From Patescibacteria group bacterium (lineage in GTDB: Bacteria; Patescibacteriota; Minisyncoccia; Phycocordibacterales; Phycocordibacteraceae): DNA of 64,000 nt. Below are positions 7,979 to 53,935 of the stretch, piece by piece. The notes under the pieces are model-generated. The model saw nothing but the letters and a program-made list of their open reading frames with translations, searched no databases and was not told the origin of the DNA. The stretch lies in NCBI GenBank assembly GCA_018970465.1, contig JAGWWI010000001.1, positions 3,430-67,429 on the forward strand. The letters are read 5' to 3'. The translations under genes were made by a program, and so were the position numbers. Each line of letters begins with the position of its first letter. Positions within the stretch are counted from its first letter, which is position 1.

Positions 7979-8287
7979 CTAGCGCGGCTTCCAGTGCGAG
8001 AGGGGGAGCGCGACGCGCGGGCCGGCGAATTTGACGCCTTCGGCTGCGAGCTTCTCGCGCTTCGCGAGGATGCCGTCGAATGCGTAGCCCACGAGAGCGC
8101 CGCCCGCGCCGACGACGCGGTGGCAGGGGACCTTCTGCGGGTTCGTATTGCGCGACATGAGCATGCCGACGGCGCGGGCGGCCTTCGGATTCCCGGCGAG
8201 GGCTGCCACCTGGCCGTAGGTCGCGACCTTGCCCTTCGGGATCTTGGCGACGGTGTCGTATACGCGCTGCTTGAATGAATCGTCCAT
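7979..8287 (-). CDS. MGMT-family protein (methylated-DNA-protein-cysteine methyltransferase DNA-binding domain, Ogt/YbaZ-like).
   Basis: The active-site motif VPCHRVV is present, and the DNA-binding helix TYGQVAALAGNPKAARAVG is about 100 aa long. Confidence 0.85.
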   Translation of the reverse strand: MDDSFKQRVYDTVAKIPKGKVATYGQVAALAGNPKAARAVGMLMSRNTNPQKVPCHRVVGAGGALVGYAFDGILAKREKLAAEGVKFAGPRVALPLSHWKPR

Positions 8288-8312
8288 GCGTTCATGGTAT
8301 CATCGGCCGCAT

Positions 8313-9008
8313 ATGGACACCAACAAATGGCTCACGCCCGCTGCGGTCGTGCTCGCGGGCCTCTTTATCGGCGGGGCGATCGTCTGGAACAACCAGCACC
8401 CGGCGCAGGCAGGCGCGGGCGCTCCGGGCAGCGGCGCCCCTGCACCCACTGCTAACATTGCGGATGTGAACACCGCCGGCGAGCCCTACATCGGCAACGC
8501 GAACGCGCCCGTCACGATCGCCTTCTGGAGCGACTACCAGTGCCCGTTCTGCAAGCAGTTCGAAGAGCAGACGCTGCCGCAGTTGAAGAAGGGGTATGTC
8601 GATACTGGGAAGGCGAAGGTCGTCTTCCTCGACTTCGCGTTCCTCGGGAATGACTCGATCACGGGCGCGGAGTACGGCCGCGCGGTGTGGAAGCTCTACC
8701 CGAACCAGTACTTCGCCTGGCGCACCGCGATGTTCAACGCGCAGGACCAGGAGGGCGATCAGGGCTTCGGCAATGCCGCGTCGATCGACAAGCTCGACGC
8801 GACCGTCCCGGGCCTCGACGCGGCGAAGATCGCCGCGGACGTCGCCGCGAACAAGGCGACCTACGACGCGGCGATTGCCGCCGACAAGGCCGAGGCGCAG
8901 AAGGAGGGCGTGAACGCGACGCCGTCGTTCGTGATCGGCACGCAGCTCATCGCGGGCGCCGTGCCGCTCGCGCAGTTCCAGACCGCGCTCGCGGCCGTCG
9001 TCAAGTAA
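8313..9008 (+). CDS. DsbA-family thiol:disulfide oxidoreductase (thioredoxin fold), membrane-anchored.
   Basis: CPFC active site within WSDYQCPFCKQF, an N-terminal TM, and C-terminal TPSFVIG (cis-Pro loop region). The start is an internal ATG of track ORF 8229..9008, chosen to avoid overlap with the MGMT gene. Confidence 0.85.
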   Translation: MDTNKWLTPAAVVLAGLFIGGAIVWNNQHPAQAGAGAPGSGAPAPTANIADVNTAGEPYIGNANAPVTIAFWSDYQCPFCKQFEEQTLPQLKKGYVDTGKAKVVFLDFAFLGNDSITGAEYGRAVWKLYPNQYFAWRTAMFNAQDQEGDQGFGNAASIDKLDATVPGLDAAKIAADVAANKATYDAAIAADKAEAQKEGVNATPSFVIGTQLIAGAVPLAQFQTALAAVVK

Positions 9009-31407: not shown

Positions 31408-33033
31408 ATGAGCGCAATCATTCCCGCTATACTGCCGCGGACGCGCGAGGAGCTTGCGGCGGCGCTTCGGAAGCTTGCGCCGATTGCGGGCGTCACGGTC
31501 GTGCAGATCGACGCGGTCGACGGGCGCTTCGTCGCATCGGCCTCCTGGCCGTATGCGGAGCCCGCGCGTCTCGGAGCAGCGGATCTGGCACGCGAGCTGC
31601 AGGACGTGCTCGCGCCCTATGCAGGGCGCTTTGTAATCGACGCGGACCTCATGGTCGCCGACCAGATCGAGGCGGCGGAGGCGTGGCTTGCCGCGGGCGC
31701 CTCGCGGGTGACGCTCCACATCGAGGCGCTCGGCGAGCCGCTCCGCGCGCTCGCCGCTCTCGAGCACCGGCTTGGCCGCCGGCAGGGCGGGAAGCCCTAC
31801 GAGCTCGGGCTCGCCGCCGGGCTCGGCACCGACCTCGCGCGCCTCGCGTCGCTCATCCCGCACGCGCGGCCCGACTACGTGCAGTTGATGGGCATCCGGA
31901 CCATCGGCCGGCAGCACGAGCCCTTTGACGCGCGCGTCCTCGCGCGCGTCAGGGCGCTCCGCGCGCGCTATCCGCGGCTCGTGATCCAGGTTGACGGCGG
32001 CGTCTCGGCGGAGACGACGCGCGCCTTGATCGACGCGGGCGCCGACCGGCTCGTCGCCGGGCACGCGATCCTCGGCGCCGCCGACTCGGCGGCCGCGTTC
32101 GCCTCGCTCGCTACGATCGCGGCGGGCGACGCGCGGTATGATGAAGCCATGCCGTTGACCGATGGAGATGTGCGAGCGATCGCCGAGAAGGCGAACGAGA
32201 TCCGCGAGACGATCGTCGAGATGCTCGTCGCCGCGGGCTCGGGGCACACTGCGGGCCCGCTTGGCTTGGCGGACATCTTCGCCGCCTTCTACTTCCACAT
32301 CCTCCGCCACGACCCGAAGAACCCGGAGTGGGAGGGGCGCGACCGCCTCATCCTCTCGAACGGCCACACTTGCCCCGTCCGCTACGCGGCGATGGCGCAC
32401 GCGGGGTACTTCCCGGCCGAGGAGTGTCTTACGCTGCGGAAGTTCGGCTCGCGCCTCCAGGGCCACCCCGAGCGCGTGCGGCTCCCCGGGCTCGAGACGA
32501 CCTCCGGCCCCTTAGGCGAAGGGCTCGCGCAGGCCGCGGGTATGGCCCTCGCCTTGCGGATGCAGGGGGAGAGAAACAGAGTGTATTGCGTCGTCTCCGA
32601 CGGCGAGCAGGACGAGGGGAATACCTGGGAGGCAGCCCTCTTCGCCGGGAAATATAAGCTCGGGAACCTCACCGCGATCATGGATCGCAATAACATACAA
32701 ATAGATGGGGTGACGGAAGACGTCATGCCGCTAGAGCCCATCAAGGATAAGTACGAGGCCTTCGGCTGGCACGTCCTCGAATGCTCGGGGCACGACATCC
32801 GCGCGTTCGTCGCGGCGGTCGAGGAGGCGAAGGCGATCTACGAGAAGCCGACGATGATCATCGCTCACACGATCCCCGGCCGCGGCGTCCCCGAGATCGA
32901 GTTCGACTACCGCTGGCATGGCGTCCCGCCTGGCGCAGGTCCCGAGGACGTCTGGAAGAAGGGCGAGCAGGGCGCCGCGATGCTGCGCGAACTCCGCACG
33001 CTCGGAGGCCGTCTCCCGCACGAATATGCTTAG
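31408..33033 (+). CDS. Fusion protein: a ribulose-phosphate 3-epimerase-like TIM barrel (N-terminal, about 235 aa) followed by the transketolase N-terminal (TPP-binding PP) section.
   Basis: The N-terminal half parallels Rpe blocks: IIPAILP..., VQIDAVDGRFV, DADLMV, AGASRVTLHIEA, VQLMGI, IQVDGGV and AGADRLVAGHAILG. The C-terminal half reads GSGHTAGPLGLADIFAAFYFHILRHDPKNPEWEGRDRLILSNGH...GPLGEGL...VSDGEQDEGNTWEA...NLTAIMDRNNIQIDG, a transketolase N-terminal pattern. The ORF is continuous with no stop. Confidence 0.75.
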   Translation: MSAIIPAILPRTREELAAALRKLAPIAGVTVVQIDAVDGRFVASASWPYAEPARLGAADLARELQDVLAPYAGRFVIDADLMVADQIEAAEAWLAAGASRVTLHIEALGEPLRALAALEHRLGRRQGGKPYELGLAAGLGTDLARLASLIPHARPDYVQLMGIRTIGRQHEPFDARVLARVRALRARYPRLVIQVDGGVSAETTRALIDAGADRLVAGHAILGAADSAAAFASLATIAAGDARYDEAMPLTDGDVRAIAEKANEIRETIVEMLVAAGSGHTAGPLGLADIFAAFYFHILRHDPKNPEWEGRDRLILSNGHTCPVRYAAMAHAGYFPAEECLTLRKFGSRLQGHPERVRLPGLETTSGPLGEGLAQAAGMALALRMQGERNRVYCVVSDGEQDEGNTWEAALFAGKYKLGNLTAIMDRNNIQIDGVTEDVMPLEPIKDKYEAFGWHVLECSGHDIRAFVAAVEEAKAIYEKPTMIIAHTIPGRGVPEIEFDYRWHGVPPGAGPEDVWKKGEQGAAMLRELRTLGGRLPHEYA

Positions 33034-35221: not shown

Positions 35222-36223
35222 ATGACCGACCTCTTCGCCGCCGCGCGCGCACTCGTCGAGCCCAGCAAGGGCCTCCTCGCCGCCGATGAGAGCACGCCCA
35301 CCGCAGCGAAGCGCCTCGCCGCGTACGGCATCGCCTCATCGCCCGAGCTCCGCCGGCAGTTCCGCGATCTCTTCCTCTCGATGGAGGGCGTCGAGCGCTA
35401 CCTCTCGGGCGTCATCCTCTACGAGGAGACATTCGCGCAGAAGGGGAGCGACGGGAAGCTCTTCCCCGACTCGCTCGAGGCGCGCGGGATCGCGCCGGGG
35501 ATCAAGGTCGACGAAGGGACCGAGCCCTTCCCGGGGAGCGCGGAGGAGCTCATCACCAAGGGCCTCGTCGGCCTCCCCGAGCGGCTCGCGGCTTTCAAGA
35601 AGGGCGGCGCGGTCTTCACCAAGTGGCGAGCCGTGATCCGGATCGAGGGCGACGCCCTGCCTACTGCCGCCGCCGTCCTCGAGAACGCGAAGCGCCTCGC
35701 GAGCTACGCCAAGGAGGCGCAGGTCGCGGGCCTCGTGCCCATCGTCGAGCCCGAGGTCCTCTTGGCGGGGAAGCACTCGCGCGCGCGGTCACAAGCGGTC
35801 ATCCAAGAGACGCTCGCGACGCTCTTCTCGGCGCTCGCGGCGCAAGGGGTCGACCTTGGCGGCCTCCTCCTCAAGACCGCGATGGCCCGTTCGGGCGACG
35901 CCTCGGCGCACAAAGACGCGTCCGAGGAGGTCGCGGCGGCGACTCTCGAAGCGCTCGTTGCGAGTGTTCCGCGGGAGGTGGCGGGCATCGTCTTCCTCTC
36001 GGGCGGCGAGAGCCCCGACGAAGCGACCGCTAACCTCGCGGCGATCACGCGCGAGGCGCGCCGCGTCGAGGCGCCCTGGCCCCTGACCTTCTCCTACGCG
36101 CGCGCCCTGCAGGAGGAGGCCTTGGCGCTCTGGAAGGGCAAGGCCGAGAACGTCGAGGCGGCCCGCGCCGCCTTCCGCGCCCGGCTCGAGAAGGTCCAGG
36201 CCGCGCTTGTCTCCTCCCCATAA
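35222..36223 (+). CDS. Fructose-bisphosphate aldolase, class I.
   Basis: KGLLAADESTPT, Schiff-base region GIKVDEG, and FTKWRAV...LVPIVEPEVLLAGKH: canonical class I FBA motifs. Confidence 0.9.
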   Translation: MTDLFAAARALVEPSKGLLAADESTPTAAKRLAAYGIASSPELRRQFRDLFLSMEGVERYLSGVILYEETFAQKGSDGKLFPDSLEARGIAPGIKVDEGTEPFPGSAEELITKGLVGLPERLAAFKKGGAVFTKWRAVIRIEGDALPTAAAVLENAKRLASYAKEAQVAGLVPIVEPEVLLAGKHSRARSQAVIQETLATLFSALAAQGVDLGGLLLKTAMARSGDASAHKDASEEVAAATLEALVASVPREVAGIVFLSGGESPDEATANLAAITREARRVEAPWPLTFSYARALQEEALALWKGKAENVEAARAAFRARLEKVQAALVSSP

Positions 36224-36234
36224 CCCTGCAAGAT

Positions 36235-36931
36235 GTAGGACATAGTATGTCCTACAATGGAGAGGTCATGGAACTCTGGCACGTGATATATCGGGGCGTT
36301 GACGGCCGAGATATCTTCAAGGACGACCAAGATCGCGCGCGGTTCGTACATGACCTCTACGAATTCAACGACACGGCTCCAGCCGGTGTTTATGTCGGAC
36401 ATACTATGTCCAAAGCTCGGGAGACGATTGTCGAAGTGCATGGGTGGAAACTCATGCCCAACCACGTGCATTTACTTCTTTCGGAATCTCGTGATGACGG
36501 ATTCTCGCTGTTTCTTAAGAAAATGCGCGGATATGCCCGGTACTACAACGAACGCCATAGCCGTCGCGGGATCTTATTCGACAAGATGAAGAAGGTGCAC
36601 ATCGAACGCGAAGCGCATTTCCTGTACATACTCCATTACATCCACCTGAACGGGCTCGACGATCTGCCAGGCGCAGAGCGGTGGCGGGAGCGTGACAAAG
36701 GGGCGATATCCGATGTTGGTGCGGCGCTCGCGCATCTCGGGCAGGATAAATGGAGCAGCTTCCGCGATTATTGCGGCATCGCGAATTTCCCCTCGATACT
36801 CACCACACGCTTGTTCGAAGATCGTCCGAGAGAATACGAGCGCGATCTTGAAGACTTTCTGCAAAATCGGACTGACCCTGGGCTGGCGGCTTACGATCTC
36901 GAATAAACGTAGGACATAGTATGTCCTACGT
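36235..36931 (+). mobile_element. Minimal IS200/IS605- or RAYT-like element: one HUH Y1 transposase gene bracketed by two identical hairpin palindromes GTAGGACATAGTATGTCCTAC.
   Basis: Left palindrome at 36235..36255; right palindrome at 36909..36929 (extended to ACGT...ACGT at 36907..36931). The tnpA ATG lies inside the left hairpin. The element sits in an intergenic slot between fba and a pilin pair. Confidence 0.65.
36247..36906 (+). CDS. tnpA: HUH single-tyrosine (Y1) transposase, REP-associated tyrosine transposase (TnpA_REP) / IS200-like.
   Basis: ELWHVIYRGVDGRDIFKDDQDRARFV, an HUH motif LMPNHVHLLL, and a catalytic-Tyr region RGYARYYNERHSRRGILF. Confidence 0.75.
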   Translation: MSYNGEVMELWHVIYRGVDGRDIFKDDQDRARFVHDLYEFNDTAPAGVYVGHTMSKARETIVEVHGWKLMPNHVHLLLSESRDDGFSLFLKKMRGYARYYNERHSRRGILFDKMKKVHIEREAHFLYILHYIHLNGLDDLPGAERWRERDKGAISDVGAALAHLGQDKWSSFRDYCGIANFPSILTTRLFEDRPREYERDLEDFLQNRTDPGLAAYDLE

Positions 36932-36987
36932 TCCAGGGCTGTGGATAGCGTGGGTGCGCGCGGCGCGGGAGTGTACGCTTAGCGCAT

Positions 36988-37236
36988 ATGGCGGACATGC
37001 AGTTCGAGGAGCCCTCCTACGGCGCGCCGGTCGTCGATGCGGGGCCGAAGGGCCTTGCGGGGCTCCTTATCAGGTGGGGCGTCGCGAAGGACGAGCGTCA
37101 AGCGCAAGTCGCGCTCCTCGTCATCTTGGTCGTTGCGCTCATCGGGGCGGCTAGCCTCTTCCTCTTCGGCGGGGCGGCTGGCTCGTCGCGGCCGCCGGTC
37201 CCGAATATCGACGGCACGCCGAGGACCGGCCCATGA
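36988..37236 (+). CDS. Pilin-associated small single-pass membrane protein, family member 3.
   Basis: The product MADMQFEEPSYGAPVVDAGPKGLAGLLIRWGVAKDERQAQVALLVILVVALIGAASLFLF overlaps the pilin 3 start as ATGA. Confidence 0.55.
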   Translation: MADMQFEEPSYGAPVVDAGPKGLAGLLIRWGVAKDERQAQVALLVILVVALIGAASLFLFGGAAGSSRPPVPNIDGTPRTGP

Positions 37237-37691
37237 ATTCGCCTGCTCGCGGCTTCACCTTGATCGAGCTCCTGGTCGTCATCGCGATCATCGGGCTCCT
37301 CTCCGCGATCGTGCTCGCCTCCTTGAACACCGCGCGCACGCGCGGGCAGGACGCGGCGCGCGAGTCGGACGTAAAGTCCCTCGAGACCGCGATGGAGCTC
37401 TACTACAACGACAACGGCGGCTACCCGACCTCGAACGGCAGCGGAAACGGCGACGTGCTCCTCTCTGACGCGACTTTGGTCGGGAAGCTGGTCCCCAAGT
37501 ACATCGCAAGCATGCCAGCTCTTCTCATCGCTGACGGCGACCACTATTACGGCGCGGGCGCGACCTCGGGCGTCGAGACGACCGGCTATGACATGTACAT
37601 TTACGTCGGTGCATCAAACTCCTACTGCCGCGCCGGCACGCTCCCCACTTGGACGGGTGACTGGGGCACTCCGACGGTCTGCAACTTCTAG
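37233..37691 (+). CDS. Type IV pilin-like protein, paralog 3.
   Basis: The product MNSPARG|FTLIELLVVIAIIGLLSAIVLASLNTARTRGQDAARESDVKSLETAMELYYNDNGGYP... has a C-terminal CRAG...TVCNF Cys pair. Confidence 0.85.
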   Translation: MNSPARGFTLIELLVVIAIIGLLSAIVLASLNTARTRGQDAARESDVKSLETAMELYYNDNGGYPTSNGSGNGDVLLSDATLVGKLVPKYIASMPALLIADGDHYYGAGATSGVETTGYDMYIYVGASNSYCRAGTLPTWTGDWGTPTVCNF

Positions 37692-37729
37692 TTGCCTCCC
37701 GGCCGCGGGCGGGGTATAGTGCGCCCGTT

Positions 37730-38371
37730 ATGCCGAATCTCCCGGTAGCAGCGCGCGATAGCGCCCACACGTCCCCGAAGGCGCTCCGCCGCGCGGGGAA
37801 GGTCCCGGCCGTCGTCTACGGCGCCACACAGGCGTCGACCCCGATCGCCGTCGACCTCGCCGCCTTCGCCAAAGTCCTCGCCGAGGCGGGGGAGTCGTCG
37901 ATCGTGACGCTCGAGGGCCTCGGCGCCCCGGTGCCGACCTTGATCCACGAGGTCGACCTCGACCCGGTGACGCGCACGCCCCGGCACGTCGACTTCTATG
38001 CGGTGACGCGCGGGCAGAAGGTGGAGGTCGCGATCCCGCTCGAGTTCGTCGGGGAGTCCCCGGCGGTCAAGGCCGGCGCGAACCTGGTCAAGGTCATGCA
38101 CGAGCTCACCGTCGAGGCCGACCCGATGGCGCTGCCGCACGAGCTCACCTTCGACGTTTCCGCGCTCGCGGAAGTGGGCCAGCAAGTGCGCGCGGGCGAC
38201 GTGCTCCTCCCCGCGGGCGTCACGCTCGCGGTCGACGCGGACGAGATCGTCGCCCTTATCCAGGAGGTCGCCGAAGAGCCCGAGGAGGAGGCGGCGCCCG
38301 TCGACCTCTCGACGATCGAGGTGGAGCAGAAGGGCAAGGAGGAGCCCGCGGAGGGCGAAGCGGCGGAGTAA
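37730..38371 (+). CDS. rplY: 50S ribosomal protein L25 (Ctc/general-stress form with an acidic C-terminal extension).
   Basis: RAGKVPAVVYG...HVDFYAV and an acidic tail EEPEEEAAPVD...EGEAAE, typical of long-form L25/Ctc. Confidence 0.85.
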   Translation: MPNLPVAARDSAHTSPKALRRAGKVPAVVYGATQASTPIAVDLAAFAKVLAEAGESSIVTLEGLGAPVPTLIHEVDLDPVTRTPRHVDFYAVTRGQKVEVAIPLEFVGESPAVKAGANLVKVMHELTVEADPMALPHELTFDVSALAEVGQQVRAGDVLLPAGVTLAVDADEIVALIQEVAEEPEEEAAPVDLSTIEVEQKGKEEPAEGEAAE

Positions 38372-38375
38372 GGGC

Positions 38376-39740
38376 GTGCTCGGGCGTGGTACACTCTACG
38401 CCGTGAACCGGCGTTTTTTTGTTGCAGCGTTCGCTCTGGCTGTTCTCTCTGGCGCGGGCCTCGCGGCGCTCCACGCGCCCGCCACGCGCGCCCAGGAGCT
38501 CACGGACGCCGAACGCGCGCAGCTGCAGGCTGAGTATAATCAGCTGCAGCAGGAAATCGCCGCGCAGCAGCAGATCATTGCCCAAACGCAGGGGCAGGAG
38601 CGCACGCTGAAGGGCGACGTGACCTCGCTCACCGCAGCGATCACCGCCGCGCAGAAGCAGATCGACGCCAAGAACATCCAGCTCCGGCAGCTCGCCTCGG
38701 AGATCGCGACGAAGACCGAGACGATCAGCAATCTCGAATCGCATATCGACGCGGGGAAAGAGTCGCTCGCCTCGATGCTCCGGCAGGAGGCGCAGCTCGA
38801 GGACGCCTCGCCGGTCGCGATCGCCTTCGGCGCCGAGAGCATCTCGGAGTTCTTCTCGGACGTGGACTCCTTCGCCTCGATCGAGAACGCCCTCCACGTC
38901 GTCTTCAACGACCTTGAGGCGAGCCAGGCGCAGGCCGCCAACGAGCGCGACGCCCTCGCCTCGACGCAGAACCAGGTCACGGACGCCAAGTACGCGGTGC
39001 AGGAAACCAAGGCGCAGATCGCGACCAATAAGACCGAGAAGCAGCAGCTCCTCGCCGCCGCCTCCGCGAGCGAGGCCGAGCAGCAGAAGGTCCTCGCGGC
39101 GAACCAGGCTAAGGCCGCCGCGATCCGCGCCGCGCTCTTCCCGCTCCGGGACGCGGCGGCGATCCCCTTCGGCACGGCGCTCCAGTACGCACAGGCGGCG
39201 CAGCGGGCGACCGGCGTCGACCCGGCTCTCGTCCTCGCCATCCTCACGCAGGAGTCGAATCTCGGCGCGAACGTGGGGCAGTGCTATCTCGCAAACGATC
39301 AGACCGGCGCGGGGGTAGGGAAGAATAGCGGCACCGCGTTCGCGAAGGTCATGAACCCGAATCGCGACGTGCCTATCTTCCTCGCGATGGCGAACGCGAT
39401 CGGTTTCGATCCGCACCACCAGGTCGTCTCCTGCCCGATCGCGGGCGCAGGCGGCTGGGGCGGCGCGATGGGCCCCGCGCAGTTCATCCCCTCGACCTGG
39501 AAGCTCTACATGGGCGTCTCGGCGAACCCTTGGGACCCGAGCGTCGCGATCCGCGCGATGTCGACCTACCTCGCCGACCTCGGCGCGGGCGCGGGCGGCT
39601 ACACGGCGCTCCACACCGCCGCGGCGAAGTACTACGCCGGCGGCGCCTGGGCCTCCGCCGGCCAGGCCTACGCCAACCAGGTGATGGCGAAGGTCTCCGC
39701 CATCCAGCAGAACATCACGTTCTTGGCGCAGAATTCTTAG
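38376..39740 (+). CDS. Secreted coiled-coil protein with a C-terminal lytic transglycosylase (SLT/MltB-like) domain.
   Basis: N-terminal TM, about 230 aa of Q/A/E-rich coiled coil, then LAILTQESNLG (catalytic Glu-Ser), GQCYL, and GAMGPAQFIPSTWKLY (the G..QF.PSTW motif). Confidence 0.7.
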   Translation: MLGRGTLYAVNRRFFVAAFALAVLSGAGLAALHAPATRAQELTDAERAQLQAEYNQLQQEIAAQQQIIAQTQGQERTLKGDVTSLTAAITAAQKQIDAKNIQLRQLASEIATKTETISNLESHIDAGKESLASMLRQEAQLEDASPVAIAFGAESISEFFSDVDSFASIENALHVVFNDLEASQAQAANERDALASTQNQVTDAKYAVQETKAQIATNKTEKQQLLAAASASEAEQQKVLAANQAKAAAIRAALFPLRDAAAIPFGTALQYAQAAQRATGVDPALVLAILTQESNLGANVGQCYLANDQTGAGVGKNSGTAFAKVMNPNRDVPIFLAMANAIGFDPHHQVVSCPIAGAGGWGGAMGPAQFIPSTWKLYMGVSANPWDPSVAIRAMSTYLADLGAGAGGYTALHTAAAKYYAGGAWASAGQAYANQVMAKVSAIQQNITFLAQNS

Positions 39741-39744
39741 GGCC

Positions 39745-40419
39745 ATGTTTCGGCGTAGCACTAAGCCGGCCATCGCCCCTCAGAACCGAGTTGTTCTCAT
39801 TGCGGGCGGGAGCGGCGAATTGGGGCAACTGTTGTCTGCAACAAAGCCGGATGGCGTCACGCTCGTCAACATCTCGCGTCAGCGAGACCTTGAGGGCGAA
39901 GGAGTCATCAACTACCACTTTGACCTTACGCGTGCGCCTGAGAAGTCTTTCGCACAGATTTCCTCGATTGTACCGAGAGTCGATGTCTTTGTCTACGCGG
40001 CATATTCGCGCGCATTTTCTACGTTTGAGCGCCTCGAGCGAGGAGCTTTCCTTAAGGAGTACGAGCTTGACGTTTTCGCGGCGGCTGCGTGGACACGCGC
40101 GTGCGCAGATCGCTTCTGGTTACGAACAGGGTCAAGAGATAACTCGGCGCATGCACGTAAAGCAATCTGGATCTCGAGCGTCGCTGCCTTCGCCAAGACA
40201 GCGCGGCCTGAGCTTGCGTCCTATAGCGCAGCTAAGGCTGCGCTGAATGCGCTCGGACCGTACGCGCATGACTACCTATTTGAAACTAGCGGCATACCGC
40301 TGGCCATCCTTGCGCCCGGTTCACTCTCTGATCCGCACATTCGCACCCAGACCGCGGCGCGCTTCTGGGAGCTCGTTAATGAGCCGCTCGATCGTTTCGT
40401 CCTTGAGCGACTATCTTGA
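39745..40419 (+). CDS. Short-chain dehydrogenase/reductase (SDR) family protein.
   Basis: Cofactor motif VVLIAGGSGELG and catalytic YSAAKAAL (YxxxK). Confidence 0.75.
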   Translation: MFRRSTKPAIAPQNRVVLIAGGSGELGQLLSATKPDGVTLVNISRQRDLEGEGVINYHFDLTRAPEKSFAQISSIVPRVDVFVYAAYSRAFSTFERLERGAFLKEYELDVFAAAAWTRACADRFWLRTGSRDNSAHARKAIWISSVAAFAKTARPELASYSAAKAALNALGPYAHDYLFETSGIPLAILAPGSLSDPHIRTQTAARFWELVNEPLDRFVLERLS

Positions 40420-40440
40420 CCATCCAGTATACTGACCGGG

Positions 40441-41256
40441 ATGCTCGAAGGCCTGAGGGCTTTAAAGGATACGCTTGACAAACGGCGCCTCGCGCTTGCC
40501 GAAGCTATGTCTCTTGACGACTTTCTGACCCCCCAGCCGTATACAGTCGAACGCGAGCCTTTCCCCCATGTGGTCGCCGATGATTTCTTTAAGCCAGAGC
40601 AGGCCGAACGCCTCAACCGTTTCTTCTACACTCGGCTTGCCGACGGGTGCGCAGATACGCTCGACTACTCCCGCTTCCACGCGTTCAGGAATCCGGGCGC
40701 AGGGGCGCAATCGATCGACTACGACGGCTACGTATATATGCCGCGCCCAGAGGAGGACGCGAGCGTGCGCGTTCTATTCAGCCTCGCGTGGAATTTGTTC
40801 TTTTCCGATCTCTTTGCGCAGCCGACGGGGTTCGCTACTACCGTCGCCTTCCACCATCATCCGGCCGGCGATCACACCGGCTTCGTCCACGATGATCACG
40901 CAGTCAAAGCCTTCTCTTCGCGCAACCGTCTTGCGAACGGCGTGGTGCCCTCGATCGCATCGCAGTCGGCTCCGGGGGACGCGGCGGGGTCTTTCAGCGG
41001 CATGCGCAGCATCGCTGTGTTGTATTTCTTCGGGGGTGGGTGGAAAGAGGGCGATGGGGGAGAGACGGGCCTCTATGCCGACCAGAATGCGCCGCCCGCC
41101 AAGCGAGTCGCGCCTTTGCCTAACCGCTTGCTCGCGTTCCAGATATCTCCGCGCTCGCTCCACGCATTTCAGGCGAATAAGACGCCGCGCGACTCCTTCG
41201 TGCAGTGGTTCCATACGGATCCGCGTTGGGCTCGCCGGCGCTATCGGCGCTCGTAG
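40441..41256 (+). CDS. 2OG-Fe(II) oxygenase-superfamily (cupin) protein.
   Basis: HHHPAGDHTGFVHDDH (an HxD facial-triad-like cluster) and a downstream His in SLHAFQ. About 270 aa. The family call is inferential. Confidence 0.55.
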   Translation: MLEGLRALKDTLDKRRLALAEAMSLDDFLTPQPYTVEREPFPHVVADDFFKPEQAERLNRFFYTRLADGCADTLDYSRFHAFRNPGAGAQSIDYDGYVYMPRPEEDASVRVLFSLAWNLFFSDLFAQPTGFATTVAFHHHPAGDHTGFVHDDHAVKAFSSRNRLANGVVPSIASQSAPGDAAGSFSGMRSIAVLYFFGGGWKEGDGGETGLYADQNAPPAKRVAPLPNRLLAFQISPRSLHAFQANKTPRDSFVQWFHTDPRWARRRYRRS

Positions 41257-41310
41257 AGCTGTGGATTGTGCGTTGCGCGCATACGGCCTTCGTCGGCTAT
41301 ACTGAGCATC

Positions 41311-41544
41311 ATGTCACTCCCCGTCATCCAAAAGAAGGCTACCTATGTCGCTCTTGGTCTCGCGTCCGCGCTTCTTGGCATAATCCTGGTCCCTTTCAGC
41401 ATAAACGGCTCAGCGTCGACGGCGAAGGCCGACATGACTGCCGGTCCATCACCGAGTGGCCCCACCGGATCAGAAGCTGCCGGAGGTCCGGCGCCGTGCA
41501 ATAGCGACACTGGCACTGAATGCGCTGGTACAGGCGTACAATAA
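41311..41544 (+). CDS. Small hypothetical secreted or membrane protein (77 aa).
   Basis: Internal ATG of track ORF 41266..41544 with TATACT 8 nt upstream. Signal-like N-terminus and a Cys pair near the C-terminus. Confidence 0.4.
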   Translation: MSLPVIQKKATYVALGLASALLGIILVPFSINGSASTAKADMTAGPSPSGPTGSEAAGGPAPCNSDTGTECAGTGVQ

Positions 41545-41559
41545 CTCTCGCGGATCCCC

Positions 41560-42645
41560 ATGCTTTCAAAGAAGGCGTCGGTAGTGCTAGGAGTAACGGC
41601 GATTGTCCTCGTCGGATTGCTTGGAGGCGCGTGGTGGTATGTGCATAAATTTCATACCCCCGCCGCGTCCACTGCAATACAAGACACGACCCTTGCCACG
41701 CTTGCACCGCTTGCGCAACAGGCTAACGTGCTTCTCGCACAGGGTAAGCCAGATCAGGCTGCGGCACTCTTCAAGAATCTCGATCGTTCCCGCCTCGACC
41801 CGCTTCAGCTCGCCTTTGTCGATACGGCGCTCGCCTCGATAACCTACGTGACAGACCGGCACGCCGCGGCTTCGCTTTACGCCGCTATAGGGAGCAGTAC
41901 TGCCTATCCAGCCGTCAGCCGGGCATATGCCTTCGTCGAATTTGCGCGGGACTATTACAATCAAAGCGACCTGTCGCTCGCGGATCCGTTCTTCACGGCA
42001 GGCGAACGTGCGCAGTATCCCACTGTATACACTCGGTATATCGCTCTCCTCAAGCGGAGTTACCTCATATACCCATTTAGTCTCGCGGCATCAGAGATCG
42101 CGAGCAGCGAGATACAGTCGCTCGTCGATCAGTACGGTGCCGCCACAACGACCTCGAGTGAAAAGACACAACTCGCCGCGGCAGCGCTGACTATCGCGAG
42201 CCCGTATATCGCGGCATTCAACAAGTCGATCACCGACATAACGCCGCCGCGGGCAAGCAGCATCCTGCTACCCACCTCCTACCTCTCTAAGGCGGTACTG
42301 CTCAGCAATCTGACGTATATGAAAGCGCCGGTACAGGAGACGCCGGACGCGAGCTTCCTTTCGGCGATAAGCTATGCGCAGAGCCTTGGGATGATAAGGG
42401 CGGAGGGAGGGGCGAGATTCTTTTATGCAGCGTATCTCTCGGGGGAGCCGGGGAAAGCGAGTGATGTTTTACAGCAACTCTCTGACATTGCATCCGATAC
42501 GTCACAAAAGGCCGAGGTACAAGCGTATCTAACTGCACACCCCACAGCTTTCACAACCGGGCGGATATTCGAGAACTTGGCGGCACTTGCAAAGAAAGAC
42601 GTTAAGATAGCGGCGGCGCTGAAAGGTCTCGGCGCCAAGATTTGA
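41560..42645 (+). CDS. Hypothetical membrane-anchored (N-terminal TM) extracytoplasmic protein, 361 aa.
   Basis: Clean ORF with an N-terminal TM helix and an Ala/Ser-rich ectodomain. Followed by a strong terminator. Confidence 0.65.
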   Translation: MLSKKASVVLGVTAIVLVGLLGGAWWYVHKFHTPAASTAIQDTTLATLAPLAQQANVLLAQGKPDQAAALFKNLDRSRLDPLQLAFVDTALASITYVTDRHAAASLYAAIGSSTAYPAVSRAYAFVEFARDYYNQSDLSLADPFFTAGERAQYPTVYTRYIALLKRSYLIYPFSLAASEIASSEIQSLVDQYGAATTTSSEKTQLAAAALTIASPYIAAFNKSITDITPPRASSILLPTSYLSKAVLLSNLTYMKAPVQETPDASFLSAISYAQSLGMIRAEGGARFFYAAYLSGEPGKASDVLQQLSDIASDTSQKAEVQAYLTAHPTAFTTGRIFENLAALAKKDVKIAAALKGLGAKI

Positions 42646-42662
42646 GCAGGTACTGAAATAGG

Positions 42663-42691
42663 AAGCCCCCGGATCAAGGATCCGGGGGCTT
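42663..42691. terminator. Bidirectional intrinsic terminator between convergent genes.
   Basis: Perfect 13-bp stem aagcccccggatc / gatccgggggctt with a 3-nt loop. Confidence 0.75.
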
Positions 42692-42714
42692 CTTGGGCGT
42701 CGGAGGTGCGACAG

Positions 42715-43278
42715 TTACGCGATGCCACCGGTTTCGACCGGGACCTTCGCGATCGGCCCGTTGGCGTTCATCCAAGCGGGCCACCCGCCACGGTACCAGT
42801 AGACGTTCTGGTATCCGAGTTTCAGGGCCCGCAGGGCCGCATTGTAGGAAAGCCAGCAATGCGGGCCGCCGCAGTAAAACACCACGGGCCGGTAGCGGTT
42901 GTTGCTCGTCGCTTCGCCCAGCATCTGGGCAAAGCGCTGGTCATACGCGGTGCCGTAGAGGCCGGCTTCCGGCCACCAATGGCCGCCCTGCACCACCATT
43001 CCGAAGTGGAAGGTCGTATTGGTGCGGACGTCGACAACGAGAGGCGGCTTGCTCGAGGAGAGCATCTCCCCGAGCTGGCTCGTCACGATAACGGCCCGGA
43101 TTCCGGGGATGGTCAGAGGCGTTGCCGCCTCGTAGTCGCCCGTACGGAGTTGGGACGTCGGCGGGACGCCGAAGTCCTCGGTCTCCGCCCGGGAGTTGCT
43201 CAAAGCCAGGCCCGCAATGGCGGGAACAGCAAAGAGCAGCAGCAGGGTAGCAGCTAGAACGCCTTTCATTGCACGCAT
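42715..43278 (-). CDS. Secreted rhodanese-like domain protein (sulfurtransferase fold; the YCGG-PHCW active-site region is atypical).
   Basis: Signal peptide ...AVPAIAGLA. Rhodanese-fold blocks LVVDVRT...F..GH...A and VVFYCGGPHCWLS (Cys loop). The start is the M5 ATG of the track ORF. Confidence 0.6.
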   Translation of the reverse strand: MRAMKGVLAATLLLLFAVPAIAGLALSNSRAETEDFGVPPTSQLRTGDYEAATPLTIPGIRAVIVTSQLGEMLSSSKPPLVVDVRTNTTFHFGMVVQGGHWWPEAGLYGTAYDQRFAQMLGEATSNNRYRPVVFYCGGPHCWLSYNAALRALKLGYQNVYWYRGGWPAWMNANGPIAKVPVETGGIA

Positions 43279-43436
43279 AGCTTCCTCCATAGAACTGCAG
43301 CCTAAGGGACCAGGCCGCTCCTAGCTCATCTTTTAGCACACTATTGAAATAATTGCAAGCCCCCTGTGGACAACTTGCGCGGGCCCTCTGGGTATGGCAT
43401 TCTCCTGCCAGGTCCAAACTGAACAGGAGACATGCC

Positions 43437-43721
43437 ATGAGAGGCATCAGTTTAGCGGCAGCAGCCCTGGTCTGCGGCTTCACAGCCGCAATTGCTGGGC
43501 AGCCGAGCGTCGTCGAGCTCCAGGGGTACCTGGCTCCTGGCACGCTCGTATGCAGCCAGACGCGCTGCTTCCGTACGGCGCAGGAGGCATCGGTTGCTTT
43601 CTTCGCCTTCGACGGGCGCGTTAGCCCGCAGGTGTGGTTCGCCCGGCCAGCGCGGGTGGGTCGGGACTTCCAGTGCGTCCCGCTCTATCTTGGCAATGAG
43701 ACACGGTCCGCGACGAGCTGA
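43437..43721 (+). CDS. Small hypothetical secreted protein (94 aa; signal peptide, 3 Cys).
   Basis: SD CAGGAGA 6 nt upstream of the in-frame ATG. The product is MRGISLAAAALVCGFTAAIAGQP.... Confidence 0.5.
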   Translation: MRGISLAAAALVCGFTAAIAGQPSVVELQGYLAPGTLVCSQTRCFRTAQEASVAFFAFDGRVSPQVWFARPARVGRDFQCVPLYLGNETRSATS

Positions 43722-43816
43722 ACATCGTCACCCAACAACTCCGGAAGCCCGCCTCGCGCGGGCCTCCACATTTTAGCTCAAGGGCCGCGTATCGCGAATG
43801 CTATAGTTGCGCGTAT

Positions 43817-44512
43817 ATGCATGCGGTGCGCGGCTGGATGCTCTTTGTGACAGCTTTCCTCTTTGCTGTGGTAGCTGCTTGCATCGTTCTGACGCTTTCT
43901 TTCGGGTGGATCGGGCGTTCGTCTGCGTCGATCGCCGCCACGTTGCCGCCGCAGCTTGTTGTGACGGGAACCGACCACTCCCGCGGAAGCGCGGCGGCAC
44001 CAGTAACGCTCATAGAATACGCCGATACGGAGTGCGAATTTTGTAAGCGGCTCGAGCCTGTGCTCGATACGCTGTATACTTGGTATGGCCCGACCGGGCA
44101 GGTGCGCTTCGTCTACCGCTATTTCCCGCTTGGCCTATGGAGCGACTCGACGCCGGAGGCGGAGGCGCTTGAGTGCGCTGCGCGTGCTGGAGGCGATACG
44201 GCCTTCTTCGCGTATCTCGACGCTCTTTTTACTGCGACCGCCTCGAATAACGGCCTCGATCTCGCGCGCCTGCCCTCATTGGCAAGCAGCGTTGGCCTAA
44301 ACGCCGGTGCCTTTGCTAAGTGCCAGGCTTCGGCAGGGGAGCTATCGCCGGCTATCGAACGGGACGTCGCTAGCGGCAAGGCGCTCGGCGTCTCCCAGGC
44401 CCCGGCACTCTTTATTGTTGCGGCGGGTGGGCACGTAACAAGGATTGTGGGGAGCAGGAGCTTGCCGGTCCTCGACTCGGTCATCAAGGCCGCGCTCGCT
44501 CCTGCGCCATGA
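43817..44512 (+). CDS. DsbA-family thiol:disulfide oxidoreductase, second copy.
   Basis: N-terminal TM, active-site CEFC in YADTECEFCKRL, and thioredoxin-fold spacing. Confidence 0.8.
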   Translation: MHAVRGWMLFVTAFLFAVVAACIVLTLSFGWIGRSSASIAATLPPQLVVTGTDHSRGSAAAPVTLIEYADTECEFCKRLEPVLDTLYTWYGPTGQVRFVYRYFPLGLWSDSTPEAEALECAARAGGDTAFFAYLDALFTATASNNGLDLARLPSLASSVGLNAGAFAKCQASAGELSPAIERDVASGKALGVSQAPALFIVAAGGHVTRIVGSRSLPVLDSVIKAALAPAP

Positions 44513-45039
44513 TCCGTCTCGGCCGCATCGGGTCAGTGCCTATACACGCGCGCGACGCCAGCGTCGGTGGCGTGGTCGCTATTTTATCTATCCTGTGCGT
44601 TGCGTATATGCCGAATGTGGATGCGCTCCGGCTCGTACTCATGTCCGGCTTGCCGGTGAGCGCCAAGGCCGTAGCTTTTGTACATCCCGCGTTTGGTATC
44701 CGAGCCCAATACGGCGTCGTTCAAATGTGGTTCATAATCTTGAACGCGCTTCTTCTGGGCGTCAATGCTGCATTGATTTCGAGTTTTATCGCCGCTCGAT
44801 TCTTCGTCCCTGGCAGGCAGATCGCCTCAAGTTTTGGGGCATTCGTCGCGGCGACAGTCGGTCTCGGCTGCGCGTCTTGCGGGGCAGCGCTCGGCTCATT
44901 CTTGGTTGCTTTATTCGGGAGCGGTTCGTCGGTACTCGTGCCGGATATCGGGTTGTTGCTTAACATGTGCGCCTCTCTCGCATATGTCGGATCAATCGCG
45001 CTTATCATCGCGCAGATGCGCAAGCCGGCCGTGTGTTAG
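44509..45039 (+). CDS. Integral membrane protein with a CxxC motif. It is translationally coupled to the dsbA-like gene, and may be a DsbB/VKOR-like redox partner.
   Basis: ATGA overlap with the DsbA-like gene. About 5 TM helices, and GLGCASCGAALG in a loop. Confidence 0.5.
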   Translation: MIRLGRIGSVPIHARDASVGGVVAILSILCVAYMPNVDALRLVLMSGLPVSAKAVAFVHPAFGIRAQYGVVQMWFIILNALLLGVNAALISSFIAARFFVPGRQIASSFGAFVAATVGLGCASCGAALGSFLVALFGSGSSVLVPDIGLLLNMCASLAYVGSIALIIAQMRKPAVC

Positions 45040-53170: not shown

Positions 53171-53935
53171 ATGAACGAGGCGGCCAAACCGACAGGGCGT
53201 CTGCACCCGATGACGGTCGCGATCCGCGACATTGCCGCCATCTTCGGCCGCATGGGCTTCGGCGTCGCCTATGGCCCTGAGCTCGAGGACGACTGGCACA
53301 ACTTCACCGCGCTCAATGTCCCCGAGGATCACCCCGCGCGCGACATGCAAGACACCTTCTGGACGGACGAGCGGCCGCCCCGGGTGCCGCGTACGCATAT
53401 GACCGCGGTCACCGCGCGCGAGCTCGAGCGTATGGCGCGCGAAGGGCTCGAGGAGCTCCGCATGATCGCGCCGGGCAAGGTCTTCCGCAACGAGGCGACC
53501 GACGTGACGCACGAGGCGCAGTTCTTCCAGCTCGACGGGTTCGCGGTCGGCCCCACGGGCGCGGTGACGCTCGCGCACCTCAAAGACACGCTCGAGCGCT
53601 TCTATCGCGAATATCTCGGGCCGCAGTCGAAGGTGCGCTTCCGGCCCTCCTTCTTCGGCTTCACCGAGCCCTCGGTCGAGGTGGATGCGTGGTACGAGGC
53701 GCCGGGCAAGGAGGGCCGCTGGCTCGAGATGAATGGCGGCGGCATGCTCCACCCGAAGGTGATCGCCGACGCCGGGCTCGACCCGGAGCAGGTTGCCGGG
53801 TTCGCCTTCGGCGGCGGCATCGAGCGGATGATCATGGTGAAGTACGGCATCCCGGACGTGCGGCTCTTCCACAACGGCGATGCGCGGTTCGTCTATGCCT
53901 TCGACGCCCAATCTATGGATGTCGGACGTCCATAA
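53171..53935 (+). CDS. pheS: Phenylalanine--tRNA ligase alpha subunit (short form lacking the N-terminal extension).
   Basis: Class II motifs: FRNEATDVTHEAQFFQLDG (motif 2) and GFAFGGGIERMIMVKYGIPDVRLF (motif 3). The start is an internal ATG of track ORF 53132..53935, avoiding 5' overlap with the divergent GT2 gene. Confidence 0.88.
   Translation: MNEAAKPTGRLHPMTVAIRDIAAIFGRMGFGVAYGPELEDDWHNFTALNVPEDHPARDMQDTFWTDERPPRVPRTHMTAVTARELERMAREGLEELRMIAPGKVFRNEATDVTHEAQFFQLDGFAVGPTGAVTLAHLKDTLERFYREYLGPQSKVRFRPSFFGFTEPSVEVDAWYEAPGKEGRWLEMNGGGMLHPKVIADAGLDPEQVAGFAFGGGIERMIMVKYGIPDVRLFHNGDARFVYAFDAQSMDVGRP

What the first reader, a model, noticed from the sequence alone, without database searches (positions are those of the whole stretch)
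36235..36931. HUH Y1 transposase flanked by two identical 21-25 nt hairpin palindromes, with start codons embedded in the hairpins
GTAGGACATAGTATGTCCTAC occurs at 36235..36255 and again at 36909..36929, extended there to ACGTAGGACATAGTATGTCCTACGT. The pair brackets a 219-aa protein with an HUH motif (NHVHLLL) and a Tyr region (GYARYYNERH), typical of REP-associated tyrosine transposases / IS200. The ATG of tnpA lies inside the left hairpin. The right hairpin contains the same ATG-TCC-TAC, starting a spurious ORF at 36921. The element sits exactly between fba and a pilin pair. REP/RAYT systems usually have many REP copies genome-wide, and I could only see these two in the window.
Basis: partly seen in the sequence, partly recalled or inferred. 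Interest (0 to 1): 0.5.

Follow-up and report, generated by a model that had tools for sequence, protein, structure and literature searches.

The report
Resident RAYT-type nuclease gene with palindromes
This is a long-resident, vertically inherited REP-associated tyrosine "transposase" (RAYT) gene of a Patescibacteria genome, bracketed by its own palindromic REP hairpins and carrying a decayed third copy inside its reading frame: a known kind of system, not previously described in this bacterial group in the literature I could search.

Summary
The 21-nt palindrome occurs exactly at 36235-36255 and 36909-36929, with none expected by chance. It brackets a protein with the HUH/Y1 fold whose best structural match is E. 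coli TnpAREP bound to a REP.

Three details are wrong or were missed.
- The conserved start is ATG 36268 (MELWHV, 212 aa), not the ATG inside the hairpin.
- The catalytic Tyr is in HYIHLNG, not GYARYYNERH.
- A third, degenerate copy lies inside the ORF at 36394-36414.

In 53 of 56 related loci that could be assessed on both sides, the gene carries a lineage-specific GTNG...CNAC palindrome upstream, in frame in a disordered loop, and downstream. The three copies are usually identical over 21/21 bases.

The gene is not a recent insertion. It sits between fba and rplY in at least 40 relatives and diverges like its neighbours. In the window's clade the cassette is inverted in place.

Cognate palindromes are dispersed at low density in relatives, including doublets inserted in frame into tktN and pheT. 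One doublet is present or absent between strains that are 99.3% identical.

Verdict: a REPtron (RAYT plus "double-foot" REPs with an intragenic REP). This architecture is already described for RAYT subclass 2.4; here it is a new member in Patescibacteria.

The parts
36234..36256 (.). Left REP: 'double-foot' palindrome TGTAGGACATA-G-TATGTCCTACA (GTAG...CTAC feet). It starts 11 nt after the fba stop and ends 11 nt before the true start codon.
   Evidence: Exact repeat and shuffle control; 11-nt arms; ssDNA hairpin -9.0 kcal/mol, z -6.1. An equivalent upstream palindrome is present in nearly all related loci.
36259..36265 (+). Shine-Dalgarno-like GGAGAGG for the true start codon
   Evidence: Read from the sequence. 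The position fits the conserved MEL start.
36268..36906 (+). RAYT-like Y1/HUH nuclease gene (212 aa).
   Evidence: Identical 212-aa protein P0001 called 'transposase [Patescibacteria]'. N-terminus conserved as MEL(Y/W)HV. AlphaFold model pLDDT 80. Best PDB fold match is 4ER8 TnpAREP, E 3.8e-5.
36394..36414 (.). Internal, in-frame, degenerate REP copy (core GGACATACTATGTCC at 36397-36411). It encodes V-G-H-T-M-S-K in the disordered loop between helix A and strand 2.
   Evidence: 18/21 match to the flanking copies, with the loop inverted. Weak hairpin, -4.3 kcal/mol. The encoded residues 47-57 have pLDDT below 50. The homologous position holds a full palindrome in 61 of 73 related loci, with strong covariation.
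36463..36471 (+). HUH motif (H-V-H in NHVHLLL)
   Evidence: H73 and H75 (219-aa numbering) are invariant in 33 homologues. They align to HMH of E. coli RayT.
36637..36654 (+). Tyrosine motif Y-I-H-L-N-G. The catalytic Tyr is Y131 in 219-aa numbering, Y124 in 212-aa numbering.
   Evidence: Y131 and N135 are invariant. They align to the Y and N of DYIYINP in E. coli RayT. The motif lies in the predicted helix 122-139 that follows strand 4.
36906..36932 (.). Right REP: AACGTAGGACATA-G-TATGTCCTACGTT. It overlaps the last base of the TAA stop codon.
   Evidence: ssDNA hairpin -11.9 kcal/mol, z -7.6. Downstream palindromes abut or overlap the stop codon in most related loci.

Best explanation
The locus is a REPtron: a single-copy, chromosomally fixed gene for a REP-associated tyrosine nuclease (RAYT/TnpAREP class of Y1 HUH enzymes) together with its cognate palindromic REP hairpins.

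Shown:
- The protein has the Y1/HUH fold, and the two His, the Tyr and the Asn of the Y-x-x-x-N motif are invariant.
- Across the family each gene carries a lineage-specific palindrome with GTNG...CNAC feet at three fixed places: about 40 nt upstream of the start, in frame in a disordered loop before the HUH strand, and at the stop codon.
- The three copies co-vary within a lineage and differ between lineages.
- The gene has stayed between fba and rplY while diverging at the same rate as those genes.
- In the window's clade, the segment bounded by the two palindromes is inverted in place.

Inferred, by analogy with E. coli TnpAREP and IS608/ISDra2 TnpA:
- The enzyme binds the hairpin that the palindrome forms in single-stranded DNA, for example at the replication fork. 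Because the palindrome has a foot on both arms, either strand offers the same substrate.
- It cleaves and rejoins at the foot through Tyr131 with HUH-bound metal.
- In this way it mobilises REP singlets and doublets in trans, while the gene itself does not move.
- The three local copies are kept alike by gene conversion or re-copying.
- The intragenic copy is tolerated because it encodes a surface loop. It may damp expression of the nuclease (speculative).

In this particular genome the internal copy has decayed to 18/21 bases and no cognate copy lies elsewhere in the 64 kb. The system may therefore be quiescent here.
For: Protein:
- Fold: 4ER8 (TnpAREP bound to a REP) is the top Foldseek hit, ahead of ISDra2 and IS608 TnpA.
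- Motifs: H73, H75, Y131 and N135 are invariant and align to E. coli RayT HMH and YIYINP.
- REP_Tyr_transpos is the best NCBIfam match.

Architecture:
- 61 of 73 loci have a clear internal palindrome.
- 53 of 56 assessable loci have all three copies, and in 37 of them the copies are identical at 21/21 bases.
- Covariation inside the ORF: 93.6% of cells are paired against 30-44% in the slid controls. Eleven of 13 pairs change on both sides, and G-U pairs are almost absent.
- The encoded peptide varies (VGHTMSK, VGRTTSY, VGLTKSY, SGSRKPR) while the palindrome persists.

Residency:
- fba and rplY flank the gene in at least 40 loci.
- RAYT identity between the window, L001 and L002 is 64/66/70%, against fba 67/68/70% and pfkB 63/66/65%.
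- There is one copy in the window and no phage homologues.

REP dispersal and mobility in relatives:
- The window's own 19-mer occurs at two intergenic sites in Patescibacteria MAG REEB49.
- Cognate copies and inverted doublets occur in the flanks of related loci.
- A doublet in tktN is present in L024 but absent in L025 and L026, which are 99.3% identical up to the insertion point.

Precedent: double-foot REPs and in-frame REPs inside tnpAREP genes are described for subclass 2.4 (PMC6006769).
Against: - No cognate REP lies outside the gene in the 64-kb window. The source genome was not in the genome collection, so the genome-wide count is unknown.
- The protein scores below the curated cut-offs of Pfam Y1_Tnp (18 against 23 bits) and NCBIfam REP_Tyr_transpos (30 against 80 bits).
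- The class-2 signature Y---NP reads Y---NG in this protein.
- The profile comparison with E. coli RayT aligned only the HUH region. The Tyr assignment therefore rests on a MAFFT alignment, the invariance of the residue and the predicted helix.
- The window's internal copy is degenerate and folds weakly.
- No biochemical activity has been tested for any member of this family.
Confidence: 0.8

Rival explanations
1. An autonomous IS200-like insertion sequence. On this reading the two hairpins are the left-end and right-end structures, and the whole 0.7-kb unit excises and re-inserts as single-stranded DNA.
For: - The size is about 700 bp, with a Y1/HUH protein between two subterminal hairpins.
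- GC is about 17 points below the neighbouring DNA.
- There are weak IS200 model matches.
Against: - The gene occupies the same fba-rplY locus in at least 40 relatives and diverges like its neighbours.
- There is one copy in 64 kb. Second copies on related contigs are 26-50% identical paralogues with their own palindromes, not duplicates.
- The Tyr motif is Y---N(G/S/P), not the IS200 motif Y---Q (PMC6006769).
- The two ends are the same palindrome rather than distinct left and right ends.
- Low GC is a property of the whole family: the gene is below its flanks in 46 of 46 loci. It is therefore not a mark of recent arrival.
Confidence: 0.03
2. The palindromes act only as RNA or transcriptional elements of this operon, for example mRNA stabilisers, an attenuator or a translational brake. 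On this reading they have no enzymatic relationship to the encoded protein.
For: - The left hairpin lies immediately 5' of the ribosome-binding site and the right one sits at the stop codon.
- In many relatives a TATACT/TATAAT box follows the upstream palindrome.
- REPs are known to affect mRNA fate (PMC3733652).
Against: - The three copies share sequence, not just structure (37 loci at 21/21 bases).
- Pair changes are almost all strict Watson-Crick with very few G-U pairs, and stem mismatches show no wobble bias.
- Loop orientation is random.
- The same palindromes occur at unrelated sites and as inverted doublets inside other genes.
- There is no T-tract, no terminator match and no Rfam match.
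Confidence: 0.07
3. A domesticated DNA-binding regulator that has lost nuclease function and uses the palindromes as double-stranded operators.
For: - The locus is fixed and the gene evolves at a housekeeping-like rate.
- The palindromes overlap the likely promoter region in many relatives.
Against: - The HUH histidines and the Tyr are invariant in all 33 aligned homologues, which argues that catalysis is retained.
- Perfect palindromes of 25-37 bp with variable loops are atypical for operators.
- The REP doublet polymorphism between near-identical strains indicates ongoing DNA transactions.
Confidence: 0.05

Closest known systems
RAYT subclass 2.4 (Bertels group 4) REPtrons, described by Quentin, Siguier, Chandler and Fichant 2018 (PMC6006769)
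   Same: - 'Double-foot' REPs with 5' GT[AG]G and 3' C[TC]AC.
- REPs flank the gene.
- REP copies are also inserted in frame inside the tnpAREP gene, in a peripheral loop.
- Low gene copy number.
   Different: [quoted passage not shown] Here the REP lies N-terminal to HUH, in the loop between helix A and strand 2, at one fixed position across the family.
- The motifs here are NH[VFY]H, LFQG/LFD and Y[IVL]HLN[GSAP].
- The host group is Patescibacteria rather than Cyanobacteria or Bacteroidetes.
RAYT subclass 2.1 (Bertels group 1; the TIRYTs of Di Nocera et al.)
   Same: This is the closest match by motifs and length. It has NHVH/NH[YF]H, an FQ variant of the W motif, Y[IV]HLNP, a C-terminal tail with a conserved SS motif, and a length of about 220-240 aa.
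   Different: Subclass 2.1 was reported to have no associated REPs; some members have terminal inverted repeats instead. The family here has canonical REP-like palindromes at three positions. I compared motifs only, not the authors' HMMs.
E. coli RayT (TnpAREP, yafM) and its REPtron; structure 4ER8
   Same: - Best structural match.
- The HUH and Tyr helix align.
- The gene is single-copy and bracketed by cognate REPs with a GTAG foot.
   Different: - Only about 18% sequence identity.
- E. coli REPs are imperfect, single-foot hairpins present in hundreds of copies. Here they are near-perfect palindromes at low density, roughly one cognate copy per 85 kb of relatives' flanks.
- E. coli RayT has no intragenic REP.
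IS200/IS605 TnpA (IS608, ISDra2)
   Same: The Y1/HUH fold and recognition of hairpins in ssDNA.
   Different: - The Y---Q motif.
- Distinct left and right ends.
- Multi-copy and mobile.

None of these three holds here.
Rickettsia palindromic elements (RPEs) and REPs inserted in genes (PMC3733652)
   Same: Palindromic repeats inserted in frame into functional genes, including tRNA synthetase genes. Here they occur in pheT (window and L058), tktN and lnt of relatives.
   Different: Here the inserted palindromes are cognate to an identifiable RAYT-type gene on the same contig.

Membership tests
Y1 HUH endonuclease superfamily (TnpAY1) | HUH motif on a beta strand of the RRM-like core fold | tested here: met
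   NHVHLLL with H73 and H75 invariant. The motif lies on predicted strand 73-80. The fold matches 4ER8, 2XO6 and 2VJV.
Y1 HUH endonuclease superfamily (TnpAY1) | Single catalytic Tyr on the helix that follows strand 4 | tested here: met
   Y131 is invariant, lies in helix 122-139 and aligns with the Tyr of E. coli RayT DYIYINP. hhalign did not reach this region.
Y1 HUH endonuclease superfamily (TnpAY1) | Passes the curated Pfam Y1_Tnp threshold | tested here: not met
   18.1 bits against a gathering score of 23. This is a divergent member; one homologue, P0077, carries a precomputed PF01797 hit.
RAYT / TnpAREP (class 2 of Quentin et al. 2018) | Class-2 tyrosine signature Y-x-x-x-N-P | tested here: inconclusive
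   Y and N are invariant, but the last position is G, S, A or P across the family and G in the window (YIHLNG) (definition).
RAYT / TnpAREP (class 2 of Quentin et al. 2018) | Gene flanked by cognate REP hairpins with a GT[AG]G foot (a REPtron) | tested here: met
   GTAG...CTAC palindromes lie on both sides in the window. The same arrangement is seen in 53 of 56 related loci. Feet across the family are mostly GTAG, GTTG, GTGG or (G)TCG, i.e. GTNG.
RAYT / TnpAREP (class 2 of Quentin et al. 2018) | Cognate REPs dispersed genome-wide | tested here: inconclusive
   None lies outside the gene in this 64-kb window, and the source genome was absent from the genome collection. In relatives there are about 6 cognate copies in 0.5 Mb of flanks. 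Two copies of the window's 19-mer occur in MAG REEB49.
RAYT / TnpAREP (class 2 of Quentin et al. 2018) | Low copy number and vertical inheritance | tested here: met
   One copy in the window. The fba-rplY locus is conserved and divergence equals that of the neighbouring genes.
RAYT / TnpAREP (class 2 of Quentin et al. 2018) | Passes the NCBIfam REP_Tyr_transpos cut-off | tested here: not met
   29.7 bits against 80. It is the best-scoring NCBIfam model, but the score is far below the equivalog cut-off.
RAYT / TnpAREP (class 2 of Quentin et al. 2018) | Cleaves REP ssDNA at the foot of the hairpin | not testable with these tools
   Needs biochemistry.
RAYT subclass 2.4 | Double-foot REPs plus an in-frame REP inside the gene | tested here: met
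   definition.
RAYT subclass 2.4 | Motifs NH[IFV]H / WQ / YIxNNP, with the insertion between HuH and Y | tested here: not met
   The family has LFQG/LFD and Y[IVL]HLN[GSAP], and the REP lies before HUH (residues 47-57 against HUH at 73-75).
IS200/IS605 insertion sequence | Y-x-x-x-Q tyrosine motif | tested here: not met
   The motif is YIHLNG (definition).
IS200/IS605 insertion sequence | Multiple near-identical copies per genome and variable insertion sites between relatives | tested here: not met
   Single copy, a fixed locus and divergent paralogues only.

The most novel reading that the evidence does not exclude
In Patescibacteria (Parcubacteria-type lineages) RAYT-type nucleases are conserved core genes, not relics. 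One sits at a fixed fba-rplY locus, and several paralogues per roughly 1-Mb genome each have a private palindrome. Their activity continually rewrites palindromes at permissive sites, including inside their own reading frame and inside essential genes such as pheT, tktN and lnt. On this reading the intragenic copy is a maintained cis-element (self-regulation or a template for copy correction) rather than a tolerated insertion, and the palindrome-bounded cassette can invert.
Probability: 0.2. Interest if true: 0.65.

Novelty: new member of a known kind. Interest (0 to 1): 0.4.

Why it matters
RAYTs are a long-standing puzzle. They are single-copy, vertically inherited 'transposases' whose benefit to the host is unknown.

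This work shows a large, uncurated RAYT-like family: more than 1,200 close homologues, and 856 clusters (at 50% identity) at E<=1e-10. Where sources name an organism, the homologues come almost entirely from Patescibacteria. Members sit at a conserved chromosomal position and often have further paralogues nearby, which argues for a host-level function. It also extends REP/REPIN biology to the Candidate Phyla Radiation.

The family gives an unusually clean comparative data set: three co-varying copies per gene, one of them coding. This can be used to study how REP specificity and REP sequence co-evolve. It also shows that palindromes insert in frame into essential genes of these reduced genomes. 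For annotation, it corrects the start codon and gives a rule for recognising these loci.

Tried and rejected
1. Genome-wide count of the palindrome. The single genome-contig scan did not contain the source genome; it returned three hits in two other MAGs. The count for this genome remains open.
2. Profile comparison with E. coli RayT aligned only the HUH region. I fell back on MAFFT plus the structure model.
3. HMM and phmmer searches against PDB sequences gave only marginal ISDra2 hits.
4. I first thought the palindromes at conserved positions in pheT and tktN were being replaced in situ. The tktN survey shows that most lineages, including the window, are empty at that site, and that close strains differ by presence or absence. 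Recurrent insertion at a permissive hot spot fits better.
5. G:T wobble bias, tested as a sign of RNA-level selection: none found.
6. The sigma-70 promoter and intrinsic terminator scan found nothing at the hairpins.
7. The Rfam scan found nothing.
8. Phage and plasmid collections gave no phage hits and only 28-31% identical plasmid 'transposases'.
9. I considered whether the palindrome centre falling on the second codon base matters for orientation flips. It holds in 48 of 61 loci, but flips never change length, so it only explains the mirror-like peptides.
10. PHROGs gave only a marginal transposase hit.

Full report
**Observation.** The 21-mer GTAGGACATAGTATGTCCTAC is present exactly at 36235-36255 and 36909-36929, and no match is expected in shuffled sequence. 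The full palindromes are 36234-36256 and 36906-36932. As single-stranded DNA they fold at -9.0 and -11.9 kcal/mol, with z-scores of -6.1 and -7.6. Between them lies an ORF of 219 aa counted from the first ATG. GC drops from about 70% to about 52% over exactly this stretch. It matches at 18/21 bases, and its 15-nt core is the exact reverse complement of the flanking core. It folds only weakly, at -4.3 kcal/mol.

**The protein.** Curated models barely see it. Pfam Y1_Tnp gives 18 bits against a cut-off of 23, and NCBIfam REP_Tyr_transpos gives 30 bits against 80. It nevertheless has more than 1,200 close homologues of about 220 aa. Where a source names an organism it is nearly always Patescibacteria or Parcubacteria; most carry no name, and a few are called 'transposase' or 'RayT'. 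A search of 1.84 billion cluster representatives finds 856 clusters at E<=1e-10.

- An alignment of 33 homologues shows that the conserved N-terminus is M-E-L-(Y/W)-H-V. The true start is therefore ATG 36268, preceded by GGAGAGG at 36259-36265, not the ATG inside the hairpin. NCBI's own call is the 212-aa form.
- H73 and H75 (NHVHLLL), Y96/Y99, Y127/Y131 and N135 are invariant.
- An AlphaFold model (pLDDT 80) has the Y1 topology. Its best PDB match is 4ER8, E. coli TnpAREP bound to a REP hairpin (E 3.8e-5), ahead of ISDra2 and IS608 TnpA.
- In a MAFFT alignment with E. coli RayT, HMH aligns with HVH and DYIYINP aligns with HYIHLNG. The catalytic Tyr is therefore Y131 on helix 122-139.
- hhalign confirmed only the HUH part.

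**Architecture across the family.** I fetched contigs for close homologues and 80 further loci from metagenomes. In every close relative the gene has its own palindrome upstream, a copy of that same palindrome inside the ORF at the same codon position, and usually a third copy at the stop codon.

- Of 73 non-redundant loci, 61 have a clear internal palindrome and the rest have remnants.
- Of 56 loci that could be assessed on both sides, 53 have all three copies.
- In 37 of those the 21-nt cores are identical in all three copies, while cores differ between lineages by about 6 of 21 bases.
- Loop orientation is random among the four possible combinations (14/14/14/11), including true inversions of 3-nt loops.
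- On an alignment of 51 internal copies, 93.6% of cells pair, against 30-44% when partners are slid. Eleven of 13 pairs show changes on both sides, and G-U pairs are almost absent. This is the pattern expected of a DNA palindrome rather than an RNA helix.
- The encoded peptide changes freely (VGHTMSK, VGRTTSY, VGLTKSY, SGSRKPR), and residues 47-57 are the one low-confidence loop of the model.
- Most palindromes begin GTAG, GTGG, GTTG or GTCG and end with the complement. This is the 'double-foot' form of the canonical GT[AG]G REP.

**Not an insertion.** L001 and L002 are collinear with the window over tkt-pfkB-fba-gene.

- The gene's protein identity among the three relatives is 64/66/70%. That matches fba (67/68/70%), pfkB (63/66/65%) and L25 (60%).
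- In at least 40 of the metagenome loci the gene also lies between rplY and fba.
- In those loci the gene points against fba and rplY. In the window, L001, L002-L004 and L091 it points with them, while tktN-tktC-pfkB-fba...rplY remain collinear. The palindrome-bounded cassette has therefore inverted in place in the window's clade.
- The gene is 4-22 GC points below its flanks in 46 of 46 loci. The low GC the eye picks up is a family property, not evidence of recent arrival.
- Only one family member is present in the window.
- There are no phage homologues and only distant plasmid ones.

**REP behaviour.** The source genome was not in the genome collection. The window's 19-mer was found at two intergenic sites of another Patescibacteria MAG (REEB49) and once in a third MAG.

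- In about 0.5 Mb of flanks of related loci there are about six further cognate copies, several as inverted doublets (REPIN-like). There are also many palindromes of sister types.
- Some contigs carry paralogues (26-50% identity) within 10 kb. Most that I examined have a private palindrome upstream, inside and downstream of the gene; one has two internal copies that encode the same peptide.
- Dispersed copies often sit in frame inside real genes: pheT (window 54183-54205 and L058, both just before the B3_4 domain), lnt, a PIF1-like helicase, and one loop of tktN in five lineages.
- The tktN doublet is present in L024 and absent in L025 and L026, which are 99.3% identical up to the insertion point. 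This is a recent gain or loss.

**Comparison with what is known.** Quentin et al. 2018 describe REPtrons, double-foot REPs and in-frame REPs inside tnpAREP genes for RAYT subclass 2.4. [quoted passage not shown] By motifs and length the present family is nearer their subclass 2.1 (NH[VYF]H, FQ, Y[IV]HLNP, SS tail), which was reported to lack REPs. Bertels et al. 2017 report only about 12-14 genome-wide occurrences of flanking 16-mers for groups 1 and 4, similar to the low density seen here. Di Nocera et al. 2013 document REPs inside genes, including tRNA synthetase genes. Text searches found no paper that links RAYTs or REPINs with Patescibacteria or the Candidate Phyla Radiation.

**Verdict.** This is a REPtron: a fixed, vertically inherited RAYT-type nuclease gene with cognate double-foot REPs, one of them intragenic. 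It is an ordinary kind of system, in a lineage and protein subfamily where I found no published description. In this genome the internal copy is decaying and no dispersed cognate copy is visible in 64 kb.

- Shown: fold, motifs, three-copy architecture, covariation, synteny, inversion, and REP polymorphism in relatives.
- Inferred: hairpin binding and cleavage in ssDNA, mobilisation of REPs in trans, homogenisation of the three copies, and any regulatory role of the internal copy.

Noticed in passing
window 54183-54205: A perfect 10-bp-stem palindrome, GTCGGGACGTcgtACGTCCCGAC (-12.5 kcal/mol, z -5.4), lies in frame inside pheT (encoding S-R-D-V-V-R-P-D), just before the B3_4 domain. It is the REP type that is cognate to the RAYT genes of other lineages (L024, L029), not to this window's gene. 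L058 has its own cognate REP at the same pheT position.
   Followed up: partly
window 53914-53934: An imperfect palindrome, TATGGATGTCgGACGTCCATA, spans the last codons and stop of pheS and ends 4 nt before the pheT start. It is of the same general type as the RAYT-associated palindromes of L070 and L073.
   Followed up: no
window 36234-36932 compared with L010-L089: The RAYT cassette is inverted relative to fba and rplY in the window, L001, L002-L004 and L091, compared with about 40 other loci where the surrounding genes are collinear. The inversion end points coincide with the flanking palindromes.
   Followed up: partly
window 36268-36906 and 45 related loci: The gene is lower in GC than its flanks in 46 of 46 loci, by 10 points on average. 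In the window GC3 is 0.62 against 0.91 for fba. This holds despite long vertical residence and is unexplained.
   Followed up: partly
L024 14148-14203; L086, L016, L074, L034 (tktN); window 32137-33030: One loop of transketolase-N (RMD..RVYC) carries in-frame REP doublets or singlets of different sequence types in five lineages. It is empty in most lineages, including the window. L024 (filled) and L025/L026 (empty) are 99.3% identical up to the site.
   Followed up: yes
L017 (reverse strand 8088-8711), L024 836-1348 and 17190-17738, L027 17267-17821, L047 7364-7999, L058 17577-18221, L086 1678-2082: Second and third paralogues (26-50% identity) lie within 10 kb of the fba-rplY copy, most with a private palindrome (none was found for the L058 copy). 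The L017 paralogue has two internal copies, both encoding LGGETAK. GGACATC(C/G)GATGTCC, which recurs in several unrelated contigs, flanks the L047 paralogue.
   Followed up: partly
L027 ~16902, L034 ~17052, L045 ~17675, L072 ~1380, L089 ~363: A different recurrent 21-nt palindrome, TGTG(A/G)ANGTC-N-GACNT(T/C)CACA, appears once per locus, at a similar distance from the gene in three of the contigs. It may be a transcription-factor operator.
   Followed up: no
many related loci, about 5-10 nt 3' of the upstream palindrome (e.g. L034, L039, L046): A TATACT/TATAAT-like box directly follows the upstream palindrome (GGGT-TATACT). This suggests that the promoter overlaps the REP. The window has no such box: only 11 nt, containing the ribosome-binding site, separate the hairpin from the ATG.
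   Followed up: no
L091 (GCA_028865925.1, contig JAGWJC010000029.1): A second public assembly carries the same locus at 99.99% identity to window 35974-44530. Its contig begins inside fba.
   Followed up: yes
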